Part shown: piece by piece, positions 4,190 to 53,519 of the stretch | How the letters are laid out: every line of letters starts with the position of its first letter | How positions within the stretch are numbered: the first letter of the stretch is position 1 | Assembly (NCBI GenBank): GCA_035758845.1 | Contig: DASTVZ010000012.1 | Location: 35,097 to 99,096 of the forward strand | Direction of reading: 5' to 3' | DNA from: Vicinamibacterales bacterium | GTDB lineage: Bacteria > Acidobacteriota > Vicinamibacteria > Vicinamibacterales > 2-12-FULL-66-21 | DNA: 64,000 bases | The notes under the pieces: generated by a model | Told to the model about the DNA's origin: nothing | What the model saw: only the letters and a program-made list of their open reading frames with translations | Databases searched by the model: none | Position numbers and translations under genes: made by a program

Positions 4190-5380
4190 ATGCTGACCAC
4201 GGCCACGCAGACCGCACAGGATTCGTTTGCTCCCGCCACGATCGATACACCTGATATTGCCGCACGCCCAGCGCCGGAAAACGGCACGGGGAGCGCCGCG
4301 CCGGTGCTTCGACGTGAGCCCGCCATCAACGCGATGTTCCGTCGCATGTGTGAGCTCAAGGCGTCGGACCTGCACATCAGCGCATCGGTCGCACCGCTCG
4401 TCCGCAAGGATGGCGAGATGCGCCGGCTGCACGAAGCGGCAGGCCCCCTGACGTCAGAGATGGTCCTGACGCTGCTCAAAGAGATCATGCCGGTGGTGAA
4501 TCAGGCGGAGTTCGAGGCACGTCACGACACCGACTTCGCATACGAGATCGCAGGGCTCGCGCGATTCCGCGCCAACGTGTTCATGGATCGTCAGGGCGTC
4601 GGTGCGGTGTTCCGCGTCATCCCGTCGAAGATTCTGACCGCGGAGCAGCTCGAACTGTCGGCGCACGTCCTGGAGCTCTGCAAACTGACCAAAGGCCTGG
4701 TCCTCGTGACCGGCCCGACGGGGTCCGGAAAGTCGACGACGCTCTGCGCGATGATCGACTACATCAACCGGAACCGGACCGATCACATCATCACGATCGA
4801 AGATCCGATTGAATTCGTGCACCAGAACCAGAAGTGCCTGATCAATCAGCGCGAGGTGCACAACCACACGCGATCGTTCAAGGACGCGCTCCGCGCGGCG
4901 CTGCGCGAAGACCCCGACGTGCTGCTCGTCGGTGAACTGCGCGACCTCGAGACCATCGCAATCGCGATCGAGACCGCGGAAACCGGCCATCTCGTGTTCG
5001 GCACCCTGCACACGACGACGGCGGCTTCGACGGTGGATCGCGTGATTGACCAGTTCCCTGCCGATCGACAGGCCCAGATCCGGGTGATGCTGTCGGAGTC
5101 GCTACGCGGCGTCATCGCGCAGACGCTGTGCCGGAAGATCGGCGGGGGACGGGTCGCTGCACTGGAGGTGCTGCTCACCAACGGTGCGATCAGCAATCTC
5201 ATTCGCGAAGGCAAGACGTTCCAGATCCCGTCGATGATGCAAGTCGGCCGGGCTCAGGGCATGGTTTCGCTGAACGATGCGCTTGCCGATCTCGTGAAAA
5301 AGGGCCTGGTGGCGCCCGAGGAAGCGATTCTTCGCGCCGTCGACAAGGCGGGACTCGAGACCCTGCTCAAGCGGCGGTAG
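4190..5380 (+). CDS. pilT: Type IV pilus retraction ATPase PilT
   Basis: ORF 3686..5380 trimmed to ATG 4190. Contains Walker A GPTGSGKSTT and the PilT His-box AIETAETGHLVFGTLHT. Confidence 0.85.
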   Translation: MLTTATQTAQDSFAPATIDTPDIAARPAPENGTGSAAPVLRREPAINAMFRRMCELKASDLHISASVAPLVRKDGEMRRLHEAAGPLTSEMVLTLLKEIMPVVNQAEFEARHDTDFAYEIAGLARFRANVFMDRQGVGAVFRVIPSKILTAEQLELSAHVLELCKLTKGLVLVTGPTGSGKSTTLCAMIDYINRNRTDHIITIEDPIEFVHQNQKCLINQREVHNHTRSFKDALRAALREDPDVLLVGELRDLETIAIAIETAETGHLVFGTLHTTTAASTVDRVIDQFPADRQAQIRVMLSESLRGVIAQTLCRKIGGGRVAALEVLLTNGAISNLIREGKTFQIPSMMQVGRAQGMVSLNDALADLVKKGLVAPEEAILRAVDKAGLETLLKRR

Positions 5381-20564: not shown

Positions 20565-21897
20565 TGACGACGGCGAGACATGCCGATTCATGGCGGAGCT
20601 GCTCGAGCGGCCCGATCGAGAAATGCGGACAACGCAGGACGCCAGTGAAGCGTTGACCCTGGCGAAGCAGCCGTTCGACCTGCTGATCTCCGACATCAAT
20701 CTCGATGCCCAGCAAAATGGCATGGACGTGCTTCGCGCGTTCAAACAGTCGAACCCGCGCGGGCACGTTGTCCTGATCAGCGGCTTTGGCACGCTGCAGA
20801 CCGCCATCGACGCGGTTCGCGCCGGCGCCTTTGACTACATCAGCAAGCCGTTCAACATTTCCGAGGTGAAGGCCACCGTCGAACGTGCGCTGTCCGATGT
20901 CGGTACGCCGGCGGCACCGCGGCCGTCGCTCGACGTGCCACCGCCCGGTCTCATCGGCCGAACCGCCGGAATGTTGTCGGTCTATAAACAAATCGCACAT
21001 GCCGCCAATGCTGTGGCGCCTGTGCTGATCATCGGTGACAGCGGCACCGGCAAAGAGCTGGTCGCGCGCGCCATCCACGCACACGGCCGGCGGTCGGCGC
21101 GGCCGTTCGTCCCGATCAACTGTGGTGCACTCACCGAGAGCGTGCTCGAATCAGAGCTGTTCGGACATACGCGCGGATCGTTCACCGGCGCCATTGCCGA
21201 CACCAAAGGCATATTCGAGCAGGCGACGGGTGGCACCGTGTTTCTCGACGAGATCGGTGAAACCTCGCCCGCCCTTCAAGTGAAACTGCTGCGGGTGTTG
21301 CAGGAAGGCGAAGTGAGACCGGTTGGCGGCAGCCGCCTCGTCAAAGTTGATGTGCGTGTCGTCGCCGCCACCAACGTCGACCTCGAGCGTGAAGTGACGG
21401 CGCAGCGTTTCCGGCAGGATCTCTTCTACCGTCTGAGCGTCATCGTCATCCGCGTGCCGGCGTTGCGTGATCGTCGCGAAGACATCCCCCTGTTGATCCA
21501 GACGTTCCTGGCAAACGCGTGCGCCCGCGCCGGCCGCAGAGTCGAGCTCTCCCCCGCGGCGATTTCAGCGCTGACGTCGTACCGGTGGCCCGGCAACGTG
21601 CGCGAGCTCGAAAACACGATCGAGCGCCTGGTCGTGTTCAGCCGCGGATCGGTCATCGACGTCGCCGATCTTCCGTTCAAAGCGACAGGACCCGACCTGC
21701 ACGAGCGGCTGTTTGCGGACTTGCCGTCGCTTGACGAGATCGAGCGACGCTATCTGCTTCACGTGATCGAGCAGGTCGGCGGCAATCGCACTCGCGCCGC
21801 AGAGGTGCTGGGCATCGATCGGCGGACGCTTTACCGGATGGCGGAGAGGTTCAGTATTGATTTGAAGGAAGACATACCGGGCAGCGGGGCGGCCTGA
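20542..21897 (+). CDS. Sigma-54-dependent response regulator (NtrC family)
   Basis: ORF 20506..21897 trimmed to ATG 20542 (MSKILIVDDD). AAA+ GDSGTGKELVA, GAFTGA-like loop, C-terminal HTH. Overlaps the kinase 3' end. Confidence 0.9.
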   Translation: MSKILIVDDDGETCRFMAELLERPDREMRTTQDASEALTLAKQPFDLLISDINLDAQQNGMDVLRAFKQSNPRGHVVLISGFGTLQTAIDAVRAGAFDYISKPFNISEVKATVERALSDVGTPAAPRPSLDVPPPGLIGRTAGMLSVYKQIAHAANAVAPVLIIGDSGTGKELVARAIHAHGRRSARPFVPINCGALTESVLESELFGHTRGSFTGAIADTKGIFEQATGGTVFLDEIGETSPALQVKLLRVLQEGEVRPVGGSRLVKVDVRVVAATNVDLEREVTAQRFRQDLFYRLSVIVIRVPALRDRREDIPLLIQTFLANACARAGRRVELSPAAISALTSYRWPGNVRELENTIERLVVFSRGSVIDVADLPFKATGPDLHERLFADLPSLDEIERRYLLHVIEQVGGNRTRAAEVLGIDRRTLYRMAERFSIDLKEDIPGSGAA

Positions 21898-44664: not shown

Positions 44665-44702
44665 TTTCCCTTTTGCCTTTTGCCTTTTCCCTTTTGCCTT
44701 TT
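44665..44702. repeat. Tandem CCTTTT(G/C) heptamer/octamer array
   Basis: TTCCCTTTTGCCTTTTGCCTTTTCCCTTTTGCCTTTTA directly upstream of upp. Related CCCTTTTCCC runs occur at 7427-7438 and 16922-16944. Confidence 0.6.
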
Positions 44703-45342: not shown

Positions 45343-45412
45343 GACCCGGATCCCGAGCACGAAAGAACACGGATAGATACGGACACGGATGAACACGGAT
45401 AATCACGGACAC
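45343..45412 (+). repeat. Periodic CACGGA motif array
   Basis: CACGAAAGAA-CACGGATAGAT-ACGGA-CACGGATGAA-CACGGATAAT-CACGGAC. The same motif and orientation relative to the downstream gene occur at 53234-53319. Confidence 0.65.
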
Positions 45413-45453: not shown

Positions 45454-46302
45454 ATGAAACCGACGCGGAAGACAGTTACCGTCGAACGTCGCGCACAGCC
45501 GCGTGTCGCTGACGGCAAGTGGCGAACCGCGCTGACCAGCATCACGCCGAACAAGATTCTCGTCCGCGGATATCCGCTCGACGAGATCATGGGCCGCCTC
45601 ACCTTCGGCGAGGCGATTTACCTGCTCCTTCTCGGCGAGTGTCCGTCGCCGGGCATCGGCCGGCTGATGGAAGCGATCCTGGTGTCGTTCATCGACCATG
45701 GGGCAACGCCGCCTTCGACGCTCGCCGCCCGCAACACGGCGACGACTGGAGCCTCGCTGCGAGCCTGCGTGGCCGCGGGGGTCCTCGGCTTCGGCCGCTA
45801 TCACGGCGGCGACATCGAGAGCTGCATGGAGTTCCTCGATGCCGGACTTGCGCTCGTCCGCAGCGGTTCGTCGTACACCGACGCCGCGGCACAGATCGTC
45901 GAACGATGGAAACAGACCGGCGATGCGCTGCCGGGATTCGGTCACCGATTCCACACACGGGATCCGCGTGCCGCTCGTCTCTTCCAGATGGCTCTCGAAC
46001 TCGAGGTCGAAGGCACGCACATCCAGATGATTCGCGCGGTCGAGATGTGGCTTCACACGAACCACGAGCCGGATGAACCCGCGATGCCCATCAACATCGA
46101 TGGCGCAATTGCCGCGGTGTGCAGCGATCTCGGCATGCCTCCGACCGTCGCCAACGCGCTGTTCATCATTTCGCGGGTACCGGGAATCGCCGCCCAGGCG
46201 CAGGAGGAGATGAACCGCGAGCATCCGATGCGGCAGATCGATCCGAAGGACTACATCTACGATGGCCCATTGGAGCGGCGGTTACCGGAGAGGAGAAAGT
46301 AG
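45454..46302 (+). CDS. Citryl-CoA lyase / short citrate-synthase-family protein
   Basis: 282 aa with the citrate-synthase-like catalytic region GFGHRFHTRDPRA and an N-terminal LTFGEAIYLLLLG. Confidence 0.65.
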   Translation: MKPTRKTVTVERRAQPRVADGKWRTALTSITPNKILVRGYPLDEIMGRLTFGEAIYLLLLGECPSPGIGRLMEAILVSFIDHGATPPSTLAARNTATTGASLRACVAAGVLGFGRYHGGDIESCMEFLDAGLALVRSGSSYTDAAAQIVERWKQTGDALPGFGHRFHTRDPRAARLFQMALELEVEGTHIQMIRAVEMWLHTNHEPDEPAMPINIDGAIAAVCSDLGMPPTVANALFIISRVPGIAAQAQEEMNREHPMRQIDPKDYIYDGPLERRLPERRK

Positions 46303-46320: not shown

Positions 46321-47760
46321 TCAGTATTTCGTCTGGGACGGATCGACCTTATCGATCCACGCCAGAATCCCACCCTTGAGGTTGCTGACGCGGGTGAACC
46401 CGCGTTCCTGGAGCAACGACACGGCCTTCGCGCTTCGTCCACCCATCTTGCAATGCACGATCATCTCTCGGTTGCGATCGAGCTCACCCGTGCGCTGCGC
46501 CAGCTCACCGAGCGGGATGAGCTTCGAGCCTTCGATCCGGCAGATCTGGTATTCGTTTGGCTCGCGCACGTCCAGCAGGAAGAAATCCTCGCCGCGGTCC
46601 CTCTTCGCCTTCATCTCCTCGACAGTGACCTCCGGCACACCAGCCGATGCCGGCTGCGCGTGCGCTGGGACGACGCCGCAGAACTGGTCGTAGTCGATGA
46701 GCGCGTGGATGCTGGGATGATCGCCGCAGATCGGGCACTCGGGATCGCGCCGAAGTTTCAGCTCGCGGAACCGCATCTGCAGGGCGTCGTACAGCAAAAG
46801 ACGGCCGATGAGCGGCTGACCACTCCCGAGAATCAGCTTGATCGCTTCGGTCGCTTGAATCACGCCAATCACGCCGGGAAGCACGCCGAGCACGCCACCT
46901 TCAGCGCAGCTCGGAACCAGACCTGGAGGCGGCGGCTCGGGATACAGGCACCGGTAGCACGGGCCACCCTTGACCGCGAACACTGACGCCTGTCCGTCAA
47001 ACCGGAAGATGCTGCCGTAGGCGTTCGGCTTTCCGAGCAGCACGCACGCGTCGTTCACCAGATATCGCGTCTGAAAGTTATCCGTGCCGTCGAGGATGAC
47101 GTCGTAGTCCTTCAGCACGTCGAGCGCGTTCTTCGAGGTCAGCGCGAGTTCGTGCATCACGACCTTGACTGACGGATTCATCGCCGTCAATCGATCGCCC
47201 GCCGCTTCCAGCTTCCGCTTGCCGACGTCTGTCGTGTCGTAGATCACCTGGCGGTGCAGGTTGCTCGCGTCGACGGCGTCGAAATCGACGAGACCAAGCG
47301 TGCCAACTCCGGCGGCGGCGAGATACATCGAGGCTGGCGCGCCCAGCCCTCCCGCGCCGACGCACAGGACCCGGGCCGCCTTCAACTTGCGCTGCCCGTC
47401 AACACCGACCTCCGGCATGATCAAGTGCCGGCTGTAGCGCTGCACCTCTTCACGCGTGAGTTCGGGCGCGTCGACGGCGGCCCCCGACCCTCCGGCAACC
47501 GAAGGGACAATGCTGATCGTGTCGCCGGCGCTCAGCGGGGTCTGCTCGCGGTCGAGGTGACGAATGTCTTCGTCGTTCACATAAATGTTCACGAAGCTGC
47601 GGAGACGACCGTCCTCGTTGTAGAGGTGCCGTCGCAGGTCACCGTATTGGCCGACGAGACGTTGCAGCGCGTCACCGACGGTCCTGCCTTCAACTTCGAC
47701 GAACTCCTGCTTCCCGGCGAACGGACGAAGCGGCGTCGGAATCAGAATGCGATGGGGCAT
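46321..47760 (-). CDS. Fusion protein: MoaD/ThiS-like sulfur-carrier domain, then MoeB/ThiF-type E1 adenylyltransferase, then rhodanese
   Basis: ORF 46321..47928 trimmed to ATG 47760. Residues 1-93 form a beta-grasp domain ending IVPSVAGG. Then YSRHLIMPEVG...VGAGGLGAP, CxxC pairs, and a C-terminal rhodanese with the active loop HCKMGGRS. Confidence 0.8.
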   Translation of the reverse strand: MPHRILIPTPLRPFAGKQEFVEVEGRTVGDALQRLVGQYGDLRRHLYNEDGRLRSFVNIYVNDEDIRHLDREQTPLSAGDTISIVPSVAGGSGAAVDAPELTREEVQRYSRHLIMPEVGVDGQRKLKAARVLCVGAGGLGAPASMYLAAAGVGTLGLVDFDAVDASNLHRQVIYDTTDVGKRKLEAAGDRLTAMNPSVKVVMHELALTSKNALDVLKDYDVILDGTDNFQTRYLVNDACVLLGKPNAYGSIFRFDGQASVFAVKGGPCYRCLYPEPPPPGLVPSCAEGGVLGVLPGVIGVIQATEAIKLILGSGQPLIGRLLLYDALQMRFRELKLRRDPECPICGDHPSIHALIDYDQFCGVVPAHAQPASAGVPEVTVEEMKAKRDRGEDFFLLDVREPNEYQICRIEGSKLIPLGELAQRTGELDRNREMIVHCKMGGRSAKAVSLLQERGFTRVSNLKGGILAWIDKVDPSQTKY

Positions 47761-47783: not shown

Positions 47784-49043
47784 TTACACCTGCGGCAACG
47801 CCGCCGCCTGATCCCCCGATCGGAGGTACGCTTCGAAATCCTCGAGCGATCGCCCGATTTCGACCCTCGGCGCGACGCGCGGACCGGTCGTCTCCGCCGC
47901 GGTCTTGTAACCGTTCCCGGTAATGCACACCACGACCGACTCGTTCGATGGTATGACGCCCGCGCGGACCAGTTGGATCGCGCCTGCCAGTGTCGCACCG
48001 CCCGCCGGTTCGGTGAACACGCCTTCGGTCTCCGCCAAAAGCTCCATCGCCTGCAGAATTTCGTCGTCACTCGACGCCACACCAGTGCCGCCGGTTGATT
48101 TGACCGTCCGAACGACCTGGAAGCCGTCAGCAGGATTTCCGATCGCAATCGACTTCGCAATCGTGGCCGGTTTTACCGGTTCAGGAAATTCGAGATCCTG
48201 CTGGAGCGCGCGCACGACCGGTGCGCATCCCGCCGCCTGAGCCGCATGAATCTTCGGCAACTCGCCATCGACGAGGCCGATCTCACGCAACTCGCGGAAG
48301 CCGCGAAGGATGCGCGGAAGCAGTGTTCCTCCCGCAACCGGCGAGACCAGATGCTGCGGAAATCGCCAGCCTAGTTGTTCGGCGACCTCGAATCCTACGG
48401 TCTTGGCCCCTTCGGCGTAGTAACTCCGCAGGTTGATGTTTGCGAATCCCCATCCGAGCCTGTCCGCGATCTGCGTACAGAGCCGGTTCACATCGTCGTA
48501 GTTTCCGCGCACGCCGATGAGATGTGGCCGGAAGACGGCGGAACCGAGCACCTTGCCAAGTTCGAGGTCGTGGGGAATGAAAACGTAGCACTCGAGACCA
48601 AGTCGGGCGGCATGCGCCGAGACGCTGTTGCCGAGATTACCAGTGGAAGCGCAACCAAACACGGTGAATCCGAGTTCCACCGCGCGCGTCGCAGCCATCG
48701 ACACAACGCGATCCTTGTAGGACAGCGTCGGATGATTCACCGAATCATCTTTGATATACAGCTCCTGCAATCCAAGCCGCTTCGCCAGCCGATCCGCGCG
48801 AATGAGCGGCGTGTACCCCGAATGAAACCCGGTTCGCGGCTCGCCGGTGATCGGCAGCAGCTCCTTGAAGCGCCACACGTTCCTGGCGCGCCGCTCGATG
48901 AGATCGCGCGTCACGGCACCACGAACGGCATCGTAATCGTAGGCAACCTCCAGCGGGCCGAGACACTGATCGCAGACCCACAGTGCTTCGGCGGGGAACT
49001 TCGTCCCGCACAAGTGGCACTGCAGCCCTGTCATGAACGTCAT
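47784..49043 (-). CDS. Threonine-synthase-like PLP enzyme (second ThrC paralogue, candidate homocysteine-forming enzyme)
   Basis: 419 aa with an N-terminal Cys4 ribbon (CHLCG...CDQC) and PLP-lysine motif HPTLSYKDR. The start overlaps the thrB stop (ATGA). Confidence 0.75.
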   Translation of the reverse strand: MTFMTGLQCHLCGTKFPAEALWVCDQCLGPLEVAYDYDAVRGAVTRDLIERRARNVWRFKELLPITGEPRTGFHSGYTPLIRADRLAKRLGLQELYIKDDSVNHPTLSYKDRVVSMAATRAVELGFTVFGCASTGNLGNSVSAHAARLGLECYVFIPHDLELGKVLGSAVFRPHLIGVRGNYDDVNRLCTQIADRLGWGFANINLRSYYAEGAKTVGFEVAEQLGWRFPQHLVSPVAGGTLLPRILRGFRELREIGLVDGELPKIHAAQAAGCAPVVRALQQDLEFPEPVKPATIAKSIAIGNPADGFQVVRTVKSTGGTGVASSDDEILQAMELLAETEGVFTEPAGGATLAGAIQLVRAGVIPSNESVVVCITGNGYKTAAETTGPRVAPRVEIGRSLEDFEAYLRSGDQAAALPQV

Positions 49044-49984
49044 GCGTGACCTTTCCGATGCACTCGCACGGTTCGCACCGTGCAGGCTATCCGTTCCTTT
49101 CGATACGCCTCGCGAAGCATTCGTTCAGCTGCCGTGGTCCTGCCGGTTGTAAACGCCGCAATCGACGGCCCAGCCCCGCTCAGGCAGAACCCGATCACAT
49201 CAGGATGCCGCACACTGAGCACTCGACGCAAACCCGGCACAAGCCGCTCGCGATACGGCTGATGCACGCGATCCCCGAGCGCCTCCCGAAAACCCTCGAC
49301 GTTGCCGGTGCCGAGCGACCCCAACAGCAATGCGAGATGCTGCAGATTGAACACCGCATCGGGAAGCGGTAGTCGCCGCGGCAACACTCGGCGCGAAACT
49401 GACGTCCGCAACTCCGCATCGGGCGTCGCGACGACGATTCGCCATTTCGCGGGCCATGGCCATTGTGTCACGGCTATGGACCCGTCGTTCGCAACGCAAC
49501 AACTCGTAAATCCGCCGAAGAGCGCCGGCGCCGCGTTATCCGGGTGCCCTTCAATCTCGGTCGCCAAACGCAGGATGTCGTCGGCGGGCCGTCGTCCGTT
49601 GACCAGCTCGCCGAGTCGTAGACCGGCAATGGCGGCCGCCGCGCTGCTGCCAAGCCCGCTTCGAAGTGGAATTTCGCTCTTTACATCCACGACGAGCGAC
49701 GGAGTCCGAGCCCGCGTCCGCGACGACGGAAAGTTCCGAAACGCCTCTTCGATTCGATTCGGACCACCGAGGGGTCCATTCGCGAAGCGGCACTCGAGCC
49801 GGCCGCGCCCGTCAGCGATCACTGCCGCGACCCGCACTCGAAGATACAAACTGACGGCAACGCCAAGCGTGTCGAATCCGGGGCCAAGATTGGAGATCGA
49901 CGCGGGAACGACGATCTCCTGTCCTGTCGCGCCGTCGCTCCGGCGAGAACGGAGCGCAGGCGCACCCGGTCCTACGCGCTGCAT
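49040..49984 (-). CDS. thrB: Homoserine kinase
   Basis: 314 aa, GHMP kinase, with PASISNLGPGFD and IPLRSGLGSSAAAA. Confidence 0.85.
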   Translation of the reverse strand: MQRVGPGAPALRSRRSDGATGQEIVVPASISNLGPGFDTLGVAVSLYLRVRVAAVIADGRGRLECRFANGPLGGPNRIEEAFRNFPSSRTRARTPSLVVDVKSEIPLRSGLGSSAAAAIAGLRLGELVNGRRPADDILRLATEIEGHPDNAAPALFGGFTSCCVANDGSIAVTQWPWPAKWRIVVATPDAELRTSVSRRVLPRRLPLPDAVFNLQHLALLLGSLGTGNVEGFREALGDRVHQPYRERLVPGLRRVLSVRHPDVIGFCLSGAGPSIAAFTTGRTTAAERMLREAYRKERIACTVRTVRVHRKGHA

Positions 49985-51822
49985 TCGCCGTCCATGACCT
50001 CCGGGTTGAACGCATGATCCTCGCCGGGATCGATAAAGTCGGCCGGCAGGGCATCCTCAGGCGTCATCTGCTCGAGATCCGCAAGCGCCGCGCGGGCCCG
50101 TGCCGTATCGACGCGCTGGAAGAATGCGGGGGCCGTCTCACCGGTGTTGTGCTCATCCTGATAGAGACGCAGCAATCGCTCGACCGCTTCAGGGACGCGA
50201 CGGGCAGGTATCTTCGCCGTCAGCCGTCCAAAGCTCGCCGCCTGCTGACCAGCGCCGCCGCCGAGCATCACGAAGTACTGCGGCACGACACGATCGCCAA
50301 GTTTTCGGATGCTCCCCTGGAATCCAATCGTCGCAATGTGATGCTGCCCGCACCCGTTCGGACATCCGCTGATCTTGATCTTTGCCTCCGACGCTTCGCG
50401 CAACAGCTTCGCCGGCTGCCTCTCCAAGTTGTCGCCGATCAATCGCGCGAGGCCTCGCGATTGCGTGACCGCGAGACGGCATGATTCCGCCCCCGGGCAA
50501 CTCGTCACATCGGTGATTGTGCTCGCACCCGAGAGACCGAGGCCAGCCGCGGCAAGCCGGCGATACAGACCGGGCACCTGTCCGCTTCGCACCCAGCGCA
50601 TCACCACATTCTGATCGACGGTCACCCGCACCATGCCGTCGCTATACGCTCTCGAGAGCAGCGCCAGCGCGCGCATCTGCCCGGCGGTGATGTCGCCGAG
50701 CACGAGCGACACGATCACCTCGCAGTACTCTCCCTGCTTCTGCGGCCGCAGATTCGTCTGCAGCCATTCCGTCCGCTCACGTCCGGGGCTGCCGTCGGTC
50801 GGGTGAACCTCCGGGACGATGCCTGGCCCTTTCACGGGACCAGCAGTCACGAGCGCCGTGATGTCAGCAATCGCAGGTTGCGGCAGCCGCTCGCCGTCGG
50901 GCGGCCCCTCAACTGGCGGATGCTCAGGATCGAACGGCAACTCCGCGCCACCGTTCGCGCGCAAATCCTCGAGCTCATGATGGAACGCCGCGTGCCATGC
51001 GTCCCACCCCATCGACTTGACGAGGAACTTCAGCCGGTTGCGTTGCTTGTGCTCGTAGTCGCCATGTTTATGGAACACGCGCAGCACTGCTTCCGCGACC
51101 ATCAAAATGTCGCAGGCGGGCAGGAACTCGTACAGCGACGCGCCTGAGCGGCACATGATCGCGGTGCCGCCCGCGACCTGTACGCGGAACCCACGTCGAC
51201 CGGAACCGTCCGGCGCCATCATGGCGCGCCATCCGATGTCGTTAATCGAGGTGACGGCGTGGTCCTCGGACGCGCAGCCTTCGAATCCAATCTTGAATTT
51301 CCGCGGCAGCACGGAGCTGAGTGGATGACGCAGTAAATACCGCGACATAGCTTCGGCGTAGGGTGTGACGTCGAACACTTCGTCGCGGGCAACGCCGGCG
51401 TGTGGACAGGCCGTGATGTTTCGCACCGAGTTCCCGCACGCCTCGCGCGTCGTCAGGCCAGCCTCGGCGAGATGGCGCATCGCCGGCTCGGCATCGTGCA
51501 GGCGCACAAAGTGCAGCTGCATGTTCTGCCGTGTGGATATGTGACCGAATCCGCGCGAGTAGCGCTCCGCCACATCAGCGAGCGCTTCCAGCTGCGAGGC
51601 GTCGAGCACGCCTTGCGGGATCTTGACGCGCAACATCTGCGCGTCCATGTCCTGCCGCTGCCCGTACGTGCCGCGGAGCAACCGGAACTTCCGCCACTCC
51701 TCGGGAGAGATCTCGCCGCGCTCGAACTTGTCGAGCATCTGTACGAACGAATCGATGTCCGCCGTGTCAGCGAAAGTCAGCCGACTGCGGCCGTACGTGC
51801 GGGGGTCGTCTAAAACAGCCAT
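49972..51822 (-). CDS. Sulfite reductase hemoprotein (ferredoxin-type NirA/Sir family)
   Basis: 616 aa with siroheme/4Fe-4S cysteine motifs TSCPGAESCRLA and SGCPNGCGQHH. Context is sulfur metabolism and siroheme synthesis. Confidence 0.8.
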   Translation of the reverse strand: MAVLDDPRTYGRSRLTFADTADIDSFVQMLDKFERGEISPEEWRKFRLLRGTYGQRQDMDAQMLRVKIPQGVLDASQLEALADVAERYSRGFGHISTRQNMQLHFVRLHDAEPAMRHLAEAGLTTREACGNSVRNITACPHAGVARDEVFDVTPYAEAMSRYLLRHPLSSVLPRKFKIGFEGCASEDHAVTSINDIGWRAMMAPDGSGRRGFRVQVAGGTAIMCRSGASLYEFLPACDILMVAEAVLRVFHKHGDYEHKQRNRLKFLVKSMGWDAWHAAFHHELEDLRANGGAELPFDPEHPPVEGPPDGERLPQPAIADITALVTAGPVKGPGIVPEVHPTDGSPGRERTEWLQTNLRPQKQGEYCEVIVSLVLGDITAGQMRALALLSRAYSDGMVRVTVDQNVVMRWVRSGQVPGLYRRLAAAGLGLSGASTITDVTSCPGAESCRLAVTQSRGLARLIGDNLERQPAKLLREASEAKIKISGCPNGCGQHHIATIGFQGSIRKLGDRVVPQYFVMLGGGAGQQAASFGRLTAKIPARRVPEAVERLLRLYQDEHNTGETAPAFFQRVDTARARAALADLEQMTPEDALPADFIDPGEDHAFNPEVMDGECSA

Positions 51823-51827
51823 TGCTC

Positions 51828-52598
51828 TTATCCCAGCAACGCAGACGTACGAGCGGAGGTCTGCTCGCGCTCCTGCGCCGCGATGATTACGGCGAGCGCG
51901 GTCACAGCGCCCACCACGATGATGCCCGGCAGATTCTCCTGATCTTCGATTGCCGCCGAATGGATCGCGTCGAGCGTGCCGTGCCAGGACTGCTCACCCT
52001 CGTGAGAGATCCCAATCAGCACCGCAGCCGGGGTATTCGGCGCCCATCCGGCAGCGAGCAACTCGTTGGCAATTGCCGCACGGTTTGCCATTCCCATCAA
52101 TACGACGACCGTCGCGCTCGCCGGCGCGAGCGAACGCAGAACCGGCGCATACGCCGATTCTGCATGTCCCGAGACGACAACAAAGCCCGACGCGAGGCCG
52201 CGATGTGTCACTGGGATTCCGGCGAGCAGCGGGGCCGCTATGGCGCTGGAGATCCCGGGAACGATCTCGCATTCAATCCCGGCGGCAGCCAGCGCGAGTG
52301 CTTCTTCCCCGCCGCGCCCGAACACAAACGGATCGCCGCATTTCAAGCGGACGACCTGATGACCGCGGCGCGCTTCGCGGATCATCAGCCGGTTGATCGC
52401 ATCCTGCGTGATCGCGGGACGGCCGGCCCGCTTACCGACGAAAAACCGCCGCGCGCGCGGTGCGAACTGCAGCGTGTCGGAATCGATTAACGCATCATAG
52501 AGCACCAGATCCGCCTTTTCGAGGCGCCTGATCGCCCTGAGCGTCAGAAGTTCGGGATCTCCCGGACCGGCGCCGACGAGTGATACGCGTCCTGTCAT
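51828..52598 (-). CDS. cobA: Uroporphyrinogen-III C-methyltransferase
   Basis: ORF 51828..52763 trimmed to the ATG at 52598, which overlaps the upstream stop (ATGA). Contains VSLVGAGPGDPELLT and VRLKCGDPFVFGRGGEE. Confidence 0.9.
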   Translation of the reverse strand: MTGRVSLVGAGPGDPELLTLRAIRRLEKADLVLYDALIDSDTLQFAPRARRFFVGKRAGRPAITQDAINRLMIREARRGHQVVRLKCGDPFVFGRGGEEALALAAAGIECEIVPGISSAIAAPLLAGIPVTHRGLASGFVVVSGHAESAYAPVLRSLAPASATVVVLMGMANRAAIANELLAAGWAPNTPAAVLIGISHEGEQSWHGTLDAIHSAAIEDQENLPGIIVVGAVTALAVIIAAQEREQTSARTSALLG

Positions 52599-53206
52599 TG
52601 CACGAACTCCGGATCGCGACCTGTCGTTCGATCGCGATCGTGCGATGACGCGCGTGACTCGTACAGCGCATTCAGTGCGTCGAGAAGTTGCGGACGCCGC
52701 GCGGCCATCGGAACACCTCGAGCCCGCCATGACTCGCGAATCTCGCGTGCACGTGCGTTCCACTGACTCAGCGTCAGATCATCGGGGAGCATGTAATCGA
52801 TCGCTTCGCGAAGAAGACCCGCGAGTGCCGGTGCTGCGCCGTCGGTGGAGATGGCCAGCGTTACACCGGGACGTCTGACGACGCCCCCGAGATAGACCGT
52901 CGCGTTGGAGGGATCGTCGACCGCATTGACGAACACCTGACGCCGTTCCGCTTCGTGCGCAACAGATCGGTTGACGTCGGACGGAGCCGCCGCGACGACG
53001 AACCATGCCCCATCAAGGTCAGTCGGCTCGAACGCCCTCTGAATGATGTCGACGCCGGCGGCTCGGATCGCATTGCACACGTCGGGCGCGACGACCACGA
53101 CGTGGGCGCCTGCTGCCTGGAGGGCGGCGAGCTTCGATGCGGCAACCGGCCCACCGCCGACCACCACCACGCGACGACCCTGGAGCTTCAGGAACGCGGG
53201 AAACAA
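52595..53206 (-). CDS. Precorrin-2 dehydrogenase / sirohydrochlorin ferrochelatase (SirC/CysG N-terminal type)
   Basis: 203 aa, TTG start. Typical N-terminus FPAFLKLQGRRVVVVGGGPVAASK. Confidence 0.8.
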   Translation of the reverse strand: MFPAFLKLQGRRVVVVGGGPVAASKLAALQAAGAHVVVVAPDVCNAIRAAGVDIIQRAFEPTDLDGAWFVVAAAPSDVNRSVAHEAERRQVFVNAVDDPSNATVYLGGVVRRPGVTLAISTDGAAPALAGLLREAIDYMLPDDLTLSQWNARAREIRESWRARGVPMAARRPQLLDALNALYESRASSHDRDRTTGRDPEFVQ

Positions 53207-53233
53207 CGCGATGACGACATCTCCTTTTCTCGA

Positions 53234-53319
53234 CTTGGTCCGTGTTAATCCGTGGCTTGGTCCGTGTTCTTCCGTGTTAATCCGTGGCTTGGTCCGTGTT
53301 CTTCCGGGTTAATCCGTGG
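53234..53319 (-). repeat. Tandem 32-nt repeat built from periodic CACGGA motifs, in the 5' UTR of the sulfite-reduction operon
   Basis: Plus-strand units CTTGGTCCGTGTTCTTCCG(T/G)GTTAATCCGTGG, two full copies plus one 22-nt copy. On the minus strand this reads CCACGGATTAA-CACGGAAGAA-CACGGACCAAG repeated. Confidence 0.8.
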
Positions 53320-53322
53320 CTT

Positions 53323-53360
53323 AAATAAAAAAGCCCGGAAGGCTTTGGCCTCCCGGGCTT
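53323..53360 (-). terminator. Intrinsic terminator (attenuator) of the Cys leader
   Basis: Minus strand: GCCCGGGAGGC-caaa-GCCTTCCGGGC (11 bp including one G.U), followed by TTTTTTATTT. Confidence 0.8.
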
Positions 53361-53398
53361 CGGTTACATCTCGTTGCGCTGGATGTTGTTTCAGGACA

Positions 53399-53482
53399 TC
53401 AACGCGTGGACCGAAGGCAGGGAAGCCCTACGAGCTGCATACAGCAGCAACAAATACACGCGCAGGTATTCCCTGAAAACAT
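53399..53482 (-). CDS. Cys-rich leader peptide (27 aa)
   Basis: Not in the ORF track. ATG TTT TCA GGG AAT ACC TGC GCG TGT ATT TGT TGC TGC TGT ATG ... TGA translates to MFSGNTCACICCCCMQLVGLPCLRSTR. Lies between a promoter and a terminator, upstream of sulfur-assimilation genes. Confidence 0.7.
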   Translation of the reverse strand: MFSGNTCACICCCCMQLVGLPCLRSTR

Positions 53483-53490
53483 TCGGTCAG

Positions 53491-53519
53491 TTATAACGTT
53501 CACTCGTCCGTAAAGTCAA
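53491..53519 (-). promoter_or_regulatory. Sigma-70-type promoter of the Cys leader
   Basis: Minus strand: TTGACT, 17 nt, TTATAA. The leader ATG starts 8 nt after the -10 box, so the transcript may be leaderless. Confidence 0.6.

What the first reader, a model, noticed from the sequence alone, without database searches (positions are those of the whole stretch)
53323..53519. Cysteine-codon leader peptide with a complete attenuator in front of a sulfite-reduction operon
On the minus strand, about 100 nt after thrC, a near-consensus promoter is present: TTGACT, 17 nt, TTATAA. An ATG follows only 8 nt after the -10 box, so the transcript may be leaderless. The ORF encodes MFSGNTCACICCCCMQLVGLPCLRSTR. 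It has 7 Cys in 27 codons, 6 of them within codons 7-14, immediately followed by Met. The TGT/TGC run produces a visible local GC dip. Mutually exclusive pairings can be read off the sequence. Segment 1, CAGGGAA (codons 3-5), pairs with segment 2, TTCCCTG (codons 20-22). Segment 2, GGCUUCCC, pairs with segment 3, GGGAGGCC. Segment 3 is the 5' arm of an 11-bp terminator hairpin followed by TTTTTTATTT. The downstream genes are siroheme synthesis, sulfite reductase and sulfur-transfer enzymes. The logic is that of the trp, his and thr attenuators, applied to cysteine. I do not know of an experimentally characterised Cys-codon attenuator.
Basis: partly seen in the sequence, partly recalled or inferred. 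Interest (0 to 1): 0.85.

Follow-up and report, generated by a model that had tools for sequence, protein, structure and literature searches.

The report
Cysteine-sensing leader attenuator for sulfite reduction
A tiny cysteine-rich reading frame followed by a transcription stop signal sits in front of a soil bacterium's sulfite-reduction genes and most likely turns them on when cysteine runs short; the same device heads sulfur-assimilation operons in about 60 related Acidobacteriota genomes, but the principle is already known from other bacteria.

Summary
On the minus strand there is a promoter-like site, then an ATG 7-8 nt after the -10 box. A 27-codon ORF follows with 7 Cys (6 in codons 7-14), then a 14-bp terminator with a T-run, then sirC-cobA-sir-thrB-metM-like-moaD~moeZ. 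The window comes from a Vicinamibacterales (Acidobacteriota) genome. In 62 of 81 related loci a poly-Cys short ORF lies at the head of the sirC-cobA-sir operon, or of longer cysH/sat operons. In 44 of the 48 loci studied in detail, TTGAC lies 33-43 nt before the start codon (about 1% by chance). All 48 were chosen for having a terminator, and that terminator covaries. The peptides agree only in the Cys run. A segment inside the ORF, 13-20 nt after the last Cys codon, can pair with the terminator's 5' arm, and it matches its own terminator better than foreign ones. The best reading is a ribosome-mediated, probably leaderless, Cys-tRNA-sensing transcription attenuator. Polycysteine leaderless sORF attenuators were shown experimentally in mycobacteria in 2020, where they act on translation. 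A Cys-codon terminator attenuator was predicted upstream of cysS in Rhodobacterales in 2021. This is an undescribed family of a known kind. Nothing here is experimentally tested.

The parts
53514..53519 (-). -35 box TTGACT
   Evidence: Read. cTTGAC is invariant in the 44 of 48 related leaders that have it 33-43 nt upstream of the start codon; about 1% is expected by chance.
53490..53496 (-). -10 region: TTATAA with a 17-nt spacer, or TATAAC with an 18-nt spacer
   Evidence: Read. A conserved TA lies 23-25 nt after the start of TTGAC across the family. The consensus scanner did not accept it.
53399..53482 (-). Leader ORF of 27 codons plus TGA: MFSGNTCACICCCCMQLVGLPCLRSTR. The ATG lies 7-8 nt after the -10 box, so the transcript is probably leaderless.
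   Evidence: ATG, frame, Cys run and stop are conserved in L001, L002, L004 and L005. The alternative GTG at 53503 is not conserved.
53441..53464 (-). Regulatory Cys codons 7, 9, 11, 12, 13 and 14 (TGC/TGT), the proposed ribosome stall site. Codons 7-9 also form the 5' strand of a protector helix with codons 25-27 (53408-53402).
   Evidence: Across the family, TGT 128 and TGC 115 are both used, and TGY falls in frames 0/1/2 at 243/61/27.
53410..53427 (-). Segment 2, GGCUUCCC-UGC-CUUCGGU (codons 19-24), the 5' strand of the antiterminator
   Evidence: Constrained folds. Duplex energy is -22.9 kcal/mol against -14.4 for shuffles, with 0 of 200 as good.
53347..53364 (-). Segment 3, ACCGAAG-CCC-GGGAGGCC, the 3' strand of the antiterminator. 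It overlaps the terminator's 5' arm.
53330..53361 (-). Intrinsic terminator hairpin with 14 pairs and loop CAAA
   Evidence: Across 48 loci 91.7% of cells are paired, 8 pairs show changes on both sides, and 0 of 500 shuffles reach the covariation score.
53320..53329 (-). T-run TTTTTTATTT after the hairpin
53239..53322 (-). Spacer between terminator and sirC. It is filled by 8 copies of (C)ACGGA at about 10-nt spacing (a 32-nt unit x2.6). It is part of the read-through 5' UTR, and its role is unknown.
   Evidence: Not conserved in the closest relatives.
52595..53206 (-). sirC-like precorrin-2 dehydrogenase / siroheme synthase N-terminal domain, the first regulated gene. Its start appears to be TTG at 53206, and the SD AAGGAG lies at 53226-53221.
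   Evidence: NCBIfam TIGR01470, 1.4e-38.
51828..52598 (-). cobA, uroporphyrinogen-III C-methyltransferase. It overlaps the sirC stop.
   Evidence: NF004790, 2.5e-83.
49972..51822 (-). Ferredoxin-type sulfite reductase (NirA/SirA family)
   Evidence: NF007126, 1.9e-83, below the curated cut-off. In relatives it is linked to cysH and sat/cysC.
49040..49984 (-). thrB, homoserine kinase
   Evidence: TIGR00191, 5e-64.
47784..49043 (-). Second threonine-synthase homologue with an N-terminal Zn ribbon, a candidate MetM-type homocysteine synthase
Evidence: TIGR00260, 2e-75.
46321..47760 (-). MoaD/ThiS-like sulfur-carrier domain fused to a MoeZ-type E1 and a rhodanese domain, the last gene of the operon
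   Evidence: NF005902, 5.6e-160, over residues 98-479. MoaD/SAMP1 over residues 11-91.

Best explanation
This is a ribosome-mediated transcription attenuator that reads cysteinyl-tRNA supply.

Transcription is inferred to start at or within a few bases of the ATG at 53482, so the 27-codon leader would be translated as a leaderless mRNA.

When Cys-tRNA is plentiful:
- The ribosome runs through codons 7-14 and on over segment 2 (codons 19-24) to the UGA while RNA polymerase makes segments 3 and 4.
- Segment 2 is then covered by the ribosome. In untranslated RNA it is locked in a hairpin closed by Cys codons 7-9 pairing with codons 25-27.
- The 14-bp hairpin and U-run form, and transcription stops at about 53325.

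When Cys-tRNA is scarce:
- The ribosome stalls in the Cys run, and its front edge ends just before segment 2.
- Segment 2 pairs with ACCGAAG-CCC-GGGAGGCC, which takes the terminator's 5' arm.
- Polymerase reads on into sirC-cobA-sir-thrB-metM-like-moaD~moeZ. This raises siroheme synthesis, sulfite reduction and thiocarboxylate-dependent homocysteine synthesis.

Shown here: the sequence features, their pairing potential, and their conservation and co-variation in relatives.
Inferred: the transcription start, translation of the leader, stalling, and the response to cysteine.
For: Anatomy in the window:
- The promoter, ATG, Cys run, stop, hairpin and T-run are all present.
- With a ribosome footprint placed on any of Cys codons 7-14 and the 3' arm not yet made, the fold contains the 2:3 helix (-35 to -43 kcal/mol). 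With the footprint on codons 20-28 it cannot form.
- Nascent RNA of 84-118 nt sequesters segment 2.

Comparative evidence from 80 Vicinamibacterales/Acidobacteriota loci, all with sirC-cobA-sir:
- Frames with at least 5 Cys in 9 codons number 46 on the operon strand and 6 on the other, mostly 1.5-1.7 kb upstream of sir.
- 48 loci have a Cys sORF plus a terminator of -20 to -32 kcal/mol directly before sirC.
- 62 of 81 loci have a leader. In some it heads cysH-sat/cysC-sirC, TauE, or CysM-like+JAB-cysH operons.
- TTGAC lies 33-43 nt before an in-frame ATG/GTG in 44 of 48 loci, against 1% by chance. Peptides are 19-36 aa.
- Peptides share only the Cys run. TGT and TGC are used about equally, and TGY is strongly frame-biased.
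- The terminator covaries.
- Antiterminator: 56% of loci beat 95% of dinucleotide shuffles. The partner always lies inside the sORF, 13-27 nt after the last Cys codon (13-20 nt in the loci that beat shuffles).
- Each segment 2 prefers its own terminator arm over foreign ones (Wilcoxon p = 2e-6; permutation p about 5e-5).

Precedent: Cys-codon sORFs do attenuate Cys operons in mycobacteria.
Against: - There are no expression data of any kind.
- The -10 box is non-canonical and the scanner rejected it.
- I found no published evidence for leaderless translation in Acidobacteriota.
- Counted column by column in the window's register, the antiterminator is only 62% paired, no better than a 1-column slide. 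The register differs between subfamilies, so formal covariation is inconclusive.
- Equilibrium folds of the truncated transcript sequester the 5' arm almost as often without a stalled ribosome (31-32 of 44 loci) as with one (40 of 44). The switch therefore has to be kinetic and is not demonstrated.
- The subfamily with CCCGCGAATCGG terminators (L010, L031, L039, L054, L059) shows no significant antiterminator.
- L028 keeps the promoter and terminator but has no Cys run.
- In the relatives where segment 2 lies 36-55 nt before the stop, a ribosome at the stop codon would not cover it.
Confidence: 0.78

Rival explanations
1. The leader works by translational attenuation of the mycobacterial Ms5788A type, or by a mix of both levels. 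The sORF senses Cys-tRNA, but the output is access to the ribosome-binding site of sirC rather than termination.
For: This is the only experimentally proven Cys sORF mechanism. In many relatives the hairpin ends only 2-25 nt before the sirC start, so it could also hide the start region.
Against: In the window the SD (53226-53221) lies about 100 nt beyond the terminator. The Cys tract pairs with it worse than shuffled sequences do (-10.5 against -15.9 kcal/mol). Every family member studied in detail has a GC-rich hairpin plus a U-run, which is the signature of intrinsic termination.
Confidence: 0.08
2. The sORF encodes a functional Cys-rich micropeptide, for example a metal- or redox-binding peptide or a precursor peptide. 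The hairpin is then simply its terminator.
For: The ORF is conserved with its start and stop. It has 3-9 Cys, which could bind metals.
Against: Outside the Cys run the peptides are not alignable between subfamilies, and the number and spacing of Cys vary. Within the close family the sORF's 3' part (CTTCGGTCCACGCGTTGATG and most of segment 2) is invariant down to 81% Sir identity, while flanking non-coding sequence varies, which points to constraint at the RNA level. The element always precedes sulfur-assimilation genes on the same strand.
Confidence: 0.04
3. The element is an RNA or protein-binding switch in which the Cys codons are incidental. The terminator would be controlled by a metabolite-binding RNA or an RNA-binding protein. 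Alternatively the hairpin is just the hom-thrC terminator next to a chance ORF.
For: There is no terminator between the thrC stop (53624) and the leader, so the hairpin probably also ends hom-thrC transcripts. An ACGGA array of unknown role lies just downstream.
Against: No Rfam family matches the window or ten relatives. The upstream neighbour varies (thrC, metM, cysH, divergent genes), while the leader keeps its own TTGAC promoter. The frame bias of TGY and equal use of TGT and TGC argue for decoding. The ACGGA array is absent from the closest relatives.
Confidence: 0.05

Closest known systems
Classical leader-peptide transcription attenuators of the trp, his, thr, leu and ilv operons (Enterobacteria and others)
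   Same: A short ORF rich in codons for the pathway's amino acid. A terminator hairpin with a U-run before the first structural gene. An alternative helix that uses the terminator's 5' arm and a segment just 3' of the regulatory codons. A protector pairing in untranslated RNA.
   Different: The amino acid is cysteine. The leader has no room for a Shine-Dalgarno sequence, because the start codon lies 6-10 nt after the -10 box, so it is probably leaderless. The phylum is Acidobacteriota. No sequence or model similarity: Trp_leader scores 16.6 bits against a gathering score of 41.
Polycysteine leaderless sORF attenuators of mycobacteria (Ms5788A, Rv0815A, Rv2334A and others; Canestrari et al. 2020, bioRxiv 10.1101/834739 / Mol Microbiol 114:93)
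   Same: An unannotated short ORF at the very 5' end of the transcript. A run of Cys codons. It heads operons of cysteine and sulfur metabolism. Several independent copies occur per lineage, a 'Cys ribulon'. Copies are conserved by Cys run and position rather than by sequence.
   Different: In Ms5788A the Cys tract pairs with the SD of the next gene, control is translational, and there is no terminator. Here there is a strong covarying intrinsic terminator plus an antiterminator, and the Cys tract does not pair with the SD. The Cys run here is in the middle of the sORF, not at its C-terminus. The phylum is unrelated.
uORFC-8-2 motif upstream of cysS in Rhodobacterales (Brewer et al. 2021, PMC8632094)
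   Same: A predicted ribosome-mediated attenuator with conserved Cys codons in a uORF and a terminator stem with a U-run.
   Different: It has only two tandem Cys codons, regulates the Cys-tRNA synthetase gene, occurs in alpha-proteobacteria, and was not described as leaderless. It is a prediction only. No model was available to test membership.
Candidate Cys leader peptides upstream of cys/cbs operons in Actinobacteria (Seliverstov et al. 2005, PMC1262725)
   Same: Short ORFs with runs of Cys codons before cysteine biosynthesis operons.
   Different: Those have no recognisable terminator, and Rho dependence was suggested. Here the terminator is the best-supported part.

Membership tests
Leader-peptide (ribosome-mediated) transcription attenuators | A short ORF immediately upstream of a biosynthetic operon, enriched in codons of the amino acid the pathway supplies | tested here: met
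   7 Cys in 27 codons, against 1.6% Cys in neighbouring proteins. The operon encodes siroheme synthesis, sulfite reductase and sulfur transfer. The same arrangement occurs in 62 of 81 loci.
Leader-peptide (ribosome-mediated) transcription attenuators | An intrinsic terminator between the leader ORF and the first structural gene | tested here: met
   A 14-bp hairpin plus T-run. Across 48 loci 91.7% of cells are paired and 0 of 500 shuffles reach the covariation score.
Leader-peptide (ribosome-mediated) transcription attenuators | A mutually exclusive antiterminator formed by the terminator's 5' arm and a segment freed when the ribosome stalls at the regulatory codons | tested here: met
   In the window, a 15-16 pair helix between 53427-53410 and 53364-53347 forms in folds with a footprint on Cys codons 7-14. 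In the family, 56% of loci beat shuffles and each segment 2 prefers its own arm (p = 2e-6).
Leader-peptide (ribosome-mediated) transcription attenuators | Compensatory base changes that support the antiterminator, column by column | tested here: inconclusive
   In the window's register only 62.4% of cells pair, equal to the -1 slide. Registers differ between subfamilies.
Leader-peptide (ribosome-mediated) transcription attenuators | The leader is translated, and read-through rises when the cognate charged tRNA is scarce | not testable with these tools
   Support is indirect only: conserved start, frame, stop and codon identity.
Mycobacterial polycysteine leaderless sORF attenuators | At least 2 consecutive Cys codons in an sORF heading a Cys/sulfur-metabolism operon | tested here: met
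   Four consecutive Cys (codons 11-14) in the window. Operon content.
Mycobacterial polycysteine leaderless sORF attenuators | The start codon is the 5' end of the transcript (leaderless) | tested here: inconclusive
   The geometry fits. There are 7 nt from the -10 box to the ATG in the window, and TTGAC lies 33-43 nt before the start in 44 of 48 loci. There is no mapping of the transcription start.
Mycobacterial polycysteine leaderless sORF attenuators | The Cys tract base-pairs with the SD of the downstream gene, giving translational control without a terminator | tested here: not met
   The Cys tract:SD duplex is -10.5 kcal/mol, weaker than the shuffled mean of -15.9. A strong terminator is present.
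uORFC-8-2 motif (Rhodobacterales cysS leader) | Located upstream of cysS, with two tandem Cys codons near positions 14-15 inside the first stem | tested here: not met
   The downstream gene is sirC, not cysS. No covariance model was available.
Any Rfam 15 family | A score at or above the family's gathering threshold | tested here: not met
   The best matches on the element's strand score 16-17 bits against thresholds of 39-41. Nothing matched the leaders of ten relatives or elsewhere in the window.

The most novel reading that the evidence does not exclude
Vicinamibacteria (Acidobacteriota) may run much of assimilatory sulfate reduction and cysteine/homocysteine synthesis through a family of leaderless polycysteine sORFs. 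These would act as classical terminator/antiterminator attenuators. That would make a 'Cys ribulon' evolved independently of the mycobacterial one, and working at the level of transcription rather than translation. It would also be the first indication that leaderless translation is used for regulation in this phylum. The terminated RNA of about 160 nt could have a role of its own.
Probability: 0.55. Interest if true: 0.6.

Novelty: new member of a known kind. Interest (0 to 1): 0.5.

Why it matters
Gene regulation in Acidobacteriota is almost unstudied, although they are among the most abundant soil bacteria. [quoted passage not shown] This element gives a concrete, testable regulator of sulfur assimilation in the phylum. 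It has a clear input (Cys-tRNA) and a clear output (termination). It shows that cysteine sensing by poly-Cys short ORFs is not confined to mycobacteria. It also links leaderless initiation with classical transcription attenuation. In practice it offers an RNA family for annotation, which Rfam lacks. It also explains why automated pipelines leave a 400-nt unannotated gap before sirC.

Tried and rejected
- Rfam search of the region at permissive E-values, of ten relatives and of the whole window found no family. Trp_leader, RybB and others are terminator-only noise.
- The consensus promoter scan found no hit, because of its strict -10 rule.
- An alternative GTG start at 53503 (34 aa) was rejected. 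It is CTG in L002 and L004.
- Other Cys-rich frames in the window (for example + 20988-21038 and 21284-21316) lie out of frame inside a sigma-54-type regulator gene and are noise.
- Column-wise covariation of the antiterminator on the 48-sequence alignment was inconclusive, because the register shifts between subfamilies. RNAalifold returns only the terminator.
- Three-state equilibrium folding (stalled, at stop, naked) did not separate the states. I therefore do not claim a thermodynamic switch.
- The Cys tract:SD pairing of the mycobacterial mechanism is not present.
- I did not build a covariance model, because an alignment fitted to the structure would have biased the pair counts.
- I did not scan metagenomes, because the hits would carry no taxonomy.
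- Literature searches for an Acidobacteria Cys leader found nothing. The library covers open-access papers only.

Full report
**1. The observation**

Reading the minus strand gives the following.
- TTGACT lies at 53519-53514. After 17 nt comes TTATAA (53496-53491). The same bases can be read as 18 nt plus TATAAC.
- ATG lies at 53482.
- The ORF encodes MFSGNTCACICCCCMQLVGLPCLRSTR, with TGA at 53401-53399.

The mechanical ORF list shows the same frame from an upstream GTG. That GTG is CTG in two close relatives, whereas the ATG is invariant.

The hairpin at 53361-53330 has 14 pairs and a 4-nt loop and is followed by TTTTTTATTT. The 166-nt transcript folds at -67.9 kcal/mol, with z = -5.1.

This is the only frame in the 64-kb window with at least 5 Cys in 9 codons. 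The GC dip exists but spans the whole intergenic region. The consensus promoter scanner did not accept the site. No Rfam family matches.

**2. Context**

Downstream on the same strand, with overlapping or nearly abutting reading frames, lie these genes:
- sirC-like (53206-52595)
- cobA (52598-51828)
- a NirA/SirA-type sulfite reductase (51822-49972)
- thrB (49984-49040)
- a second threonine-synthase homologue with a Zn ribbon (49043-47784)
- a MoaD-like domain fused to MoeZ and rhodanese (47760-46321)

The last three look like the O-phosphohomoserine / thiocarboxylate route to homocysteine (MetM, MetO, MoeZ) summarised in the GapMind 2026 preprint. That assignment is inferred, not tested.

Upstream are hom and thrC. 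There is no terminator between the thrC stop (53624) and the leader.

**3. Relatives**

A search with the sulfite reductase returned 80 loci. Nearly all are titled Acidobacteriota or Vicinamibacterales MAGs, with 96% to 56% identity. sirC-cobA-sir is contiguous wherever the contig allows, while the upstream neighbours vary.

- Frames with at least 5 Cys in 9 codons occur 46 times on the operon strand and 6 times on the other. Most lie 1.5-1.7 kb upstream of sir.
- In 48 loci a Cys sORF (at least 3 Cys in 9) is followed by a hairpin and T-run of -20 to -32 kcal/mol just before sirC. The last Cys lies 27-75 nt before the stop, and the stop lies 16-54 nt before the hairpin.
- With three criteria together (at least 4 Cys, TTGAC promoter, terminator), 53 units are found.
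- Some of these head longer or different sulfur operons:
  - leader-cysH-sat/cysC-sirC (L029, L035)
  - leader-TauE (L049)
  - leader-CysM-like+JAB-cysH on the opposite strand (L031)
- Overall, 62 of 81 loci have a leader. The rest are truncated contigs, have other genes directly upstream of sirC, or lack one. L028 keeps the promoter and terminator but has no Cys run.

**4. Evidence that the ORF is decoded**

- Peptides from different subfamilies share only the Cys run.
- Cys makes up a median 18% of leader codons, against 1.6% in neighbouring proteins.
- TGT (128) and TGC (115) are used about equally.
- TGY falls in the sORF frame 243 times, against 61 and 27 in the other two frames.
- cTTGAC is invariant in the 44 of 48 loci that have it 33-43 nt before an in-frame ATG or GTG. 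Chance would give 1%.
- A conserved TA marks the -10 box, 6-10 nt before the start codon. That leaves no room for a Shine-Dalgarno sequence.
- The start codon therefore lies at or within a few bases of the predicted transcription start. The leader is probably leaderless. This rests on geometry alone.

**5. RNA structures in the window**

- With the terminator's 3' arm absent and a 28-nt footprint placed on any Cys codon from 7 to 14, the fold contains a helix between GGCUUCCC-UGC-CUUCGGU (53427-53410, codons 19-24) and ACCGAAG-CCC-GGGAGGCC (53364-53347). With the footprint on codons 20-28 the helix cannot form.
- Energies of the full transcript:
  - MFE (protector plus terminator): -67.9 kcal/mol
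  - the 2:3 conformer: -57.1 kcal/mol
- Nascent RNA of 84-118 nt locks segment 2 in a hairpin closed by Cys codons 7-9 pairing with codons 25-27.

**6. RNA structures in the family**

- Terminator: 91.7% of cells are paired, 8 of 14 pairs change on both sides, and no shuffle or slide matches it. RNAalifold agrees.
- Antiterminator:
  - The best duplex between the region after the stalled footprint and the 5' arm beats 95% of dinucleotide shuffles in 56% of loci. Against random natural segments the figure is 33%.
  - The partner always lies inside the sORF. It begins 13-27 nt after the last Cys codon, and 13-20 nt in the loci that beat shuffles.
  - In a 48x48 matrix, each segment 2 binds its own arm better than arms differing at 4 or more of 16 positions. 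Wilcoxon p = 2e-6. With one representative per arm class p = 4e-4. Permutation p is about 5e-5.

Limits:
- In the window's register the column-wise count is only 62% paired, equal to a 1-column slide.
- A subfamily with CCCGCGAATCGG arms shows no significant partner.
- Equilibrium folds do not separate stalled from unstalled states. The decision must therefore be kinetic, as in classical attenuators, and it is not demonstrated here.

**7. Mechanism**

Cys-tRNA scarcity would stall the ribosome in codons 7-14. That leaves segment 2 free to capture the terminator's 5' arm, and polymerase reads into the operon. With ample Cys-tRNA the ribosome covers segment 2 on its way to the UGA, and the hairpin forms.

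The mycobacterial alternative, in which the Cys tract pairs with the SD, is not supported. The duplex is weaker than shuffles, and the SD lies about 100 nt beyond the terminator.

**8. Comparison with what is known**

- The logic is that of the trp, his and thr attenuators.
- Cys-specific precedents exist:
  - candidate Cys leaders without terminators in Actinobacteria (PMC1262725)
  - experimentally proven polycysteine leaderless sORFs in mycobacteria, which act translationally (10.1101/834739)
  - a predicted Cys-codon terminator attenuator before cysS in Rhodobacterales (PMC8632094)
- I found nothing for Acidobacteria. The library searched holds open-access papers only.

**9. Verdict**

The novelty is more modest than claimed. 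This is an undescribed and widespread family of a known kind, and it combines leaderless geometry with a classical terminator/antiterminator. Interest is 0.5.

Noticed in passing
window 53239-53322 (-) and 45355-45412 (+): There are two arrays of (C)ACGGA repeated every 10-11 nt. Each lies on the sense strand just upstream of a gene start: sirC, and the ORF at 45454-46302. ACGGA-N5-ACGGA-N5-ACGGA matches 4 times, against 0.03 expected. They could be a phased protein-binding array on DNA, or GGA-type sites for an RNA-binding protein. Neither was tested.
   Followed up: partly
L001/L003/L004 (spacer before sirC), L006 about 4600-4640, L077 about 4440-4510, L072 upstream of its leader promoter; window 44665-44702: Relatives carry different short tandem repeats around the leader and the sirC start. 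Examples are AACTGGTA x up to about 12, CCGAGGTC, TAGTTGG and GTGAACCC, and most lie in the spacer before sirC. The window also has TTTGCCT x5.4 just before the upp-like gene. Repeats of 7-10 nt next to gene starts seem to be a habit of these genomes. Their sequence is not conserved even between genomes with 94-96% identical Sir.
   Followed up: partly
window 46321-47760 (-): A MoaD/ThiS-like sulfur-carrier domain ending ...VAGG is fused in frame to a MoeZ-type adenylyltransferase with a rhodanese domain. The carrier's C-terminal Gly-Gly would have to be freed by cleavage for it to work.
   Followed up: no
window 47784-49984 (-): thrB and a second threonine-synthase homologue with an N-terminal Zn ribbon sit inside the sulfite-reductase operon. 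A canonical thrC lies just upstream of the leader. The pattern fits the MetM/MetO/MoeZ route from O-phosphohomoserine to homocysteine.
   Followed up: partly
window 53188-53220 (-): A 10-codon ORF (MSSSRCFPRS) starts at an ATG directly abutting the AAGGAG SD and overlaps the presumed TTG start of sirC (53206) in another frame. The stretch AGGAGATGTCGTCATCGCGTTGTTTCCC is identical in L001 and L004, but TTG is CTC in L002 and L005. The true sirC start, and any coupling between the two frames, is unclear.
   Followed up: no
L014 6394-6509: A SAM riboswitch (82 bits) lies directly after sir in this relative. In the window's lineage thrB and the MetM-like gene follow sir directly under the Cys leader, and no riboswitch is present.
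   Followed up: no
L028 about 4250-4480: This Luteitalea sp. MAG keeps the TTGAC promoter and the GCCCGGGAGG terminator before sirC but has no Cys run. It is either a decayed leader or an assembly artefact.
   Followed up: no
L031 3112-3201 (-), L059 1203-1286 (-), L049 1032-1133, L029 1944-2027, L035 1732-1818: Further poly-Cys leader units head other sulfur operons: CysM-like+JAB fusion-cysH, TauE/SafE, and cysH-sat/cysC. The gene after the L059 unit was not identified. This suggests a multi-operon cysteine regulon.
   Followed up: partly
window 53400-53440 (-) and the same stretch in L001, L002, L004, L005: In the window's subfamily a Met codon directly follows the Cys run (CCCCM). In this lineage thrB and the MetM-like gene follow sir directly. 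Other subfamilies place Met inside the run (CMC) or lack it, so there is no consistent link to methionine sensing.
   Followed up: no
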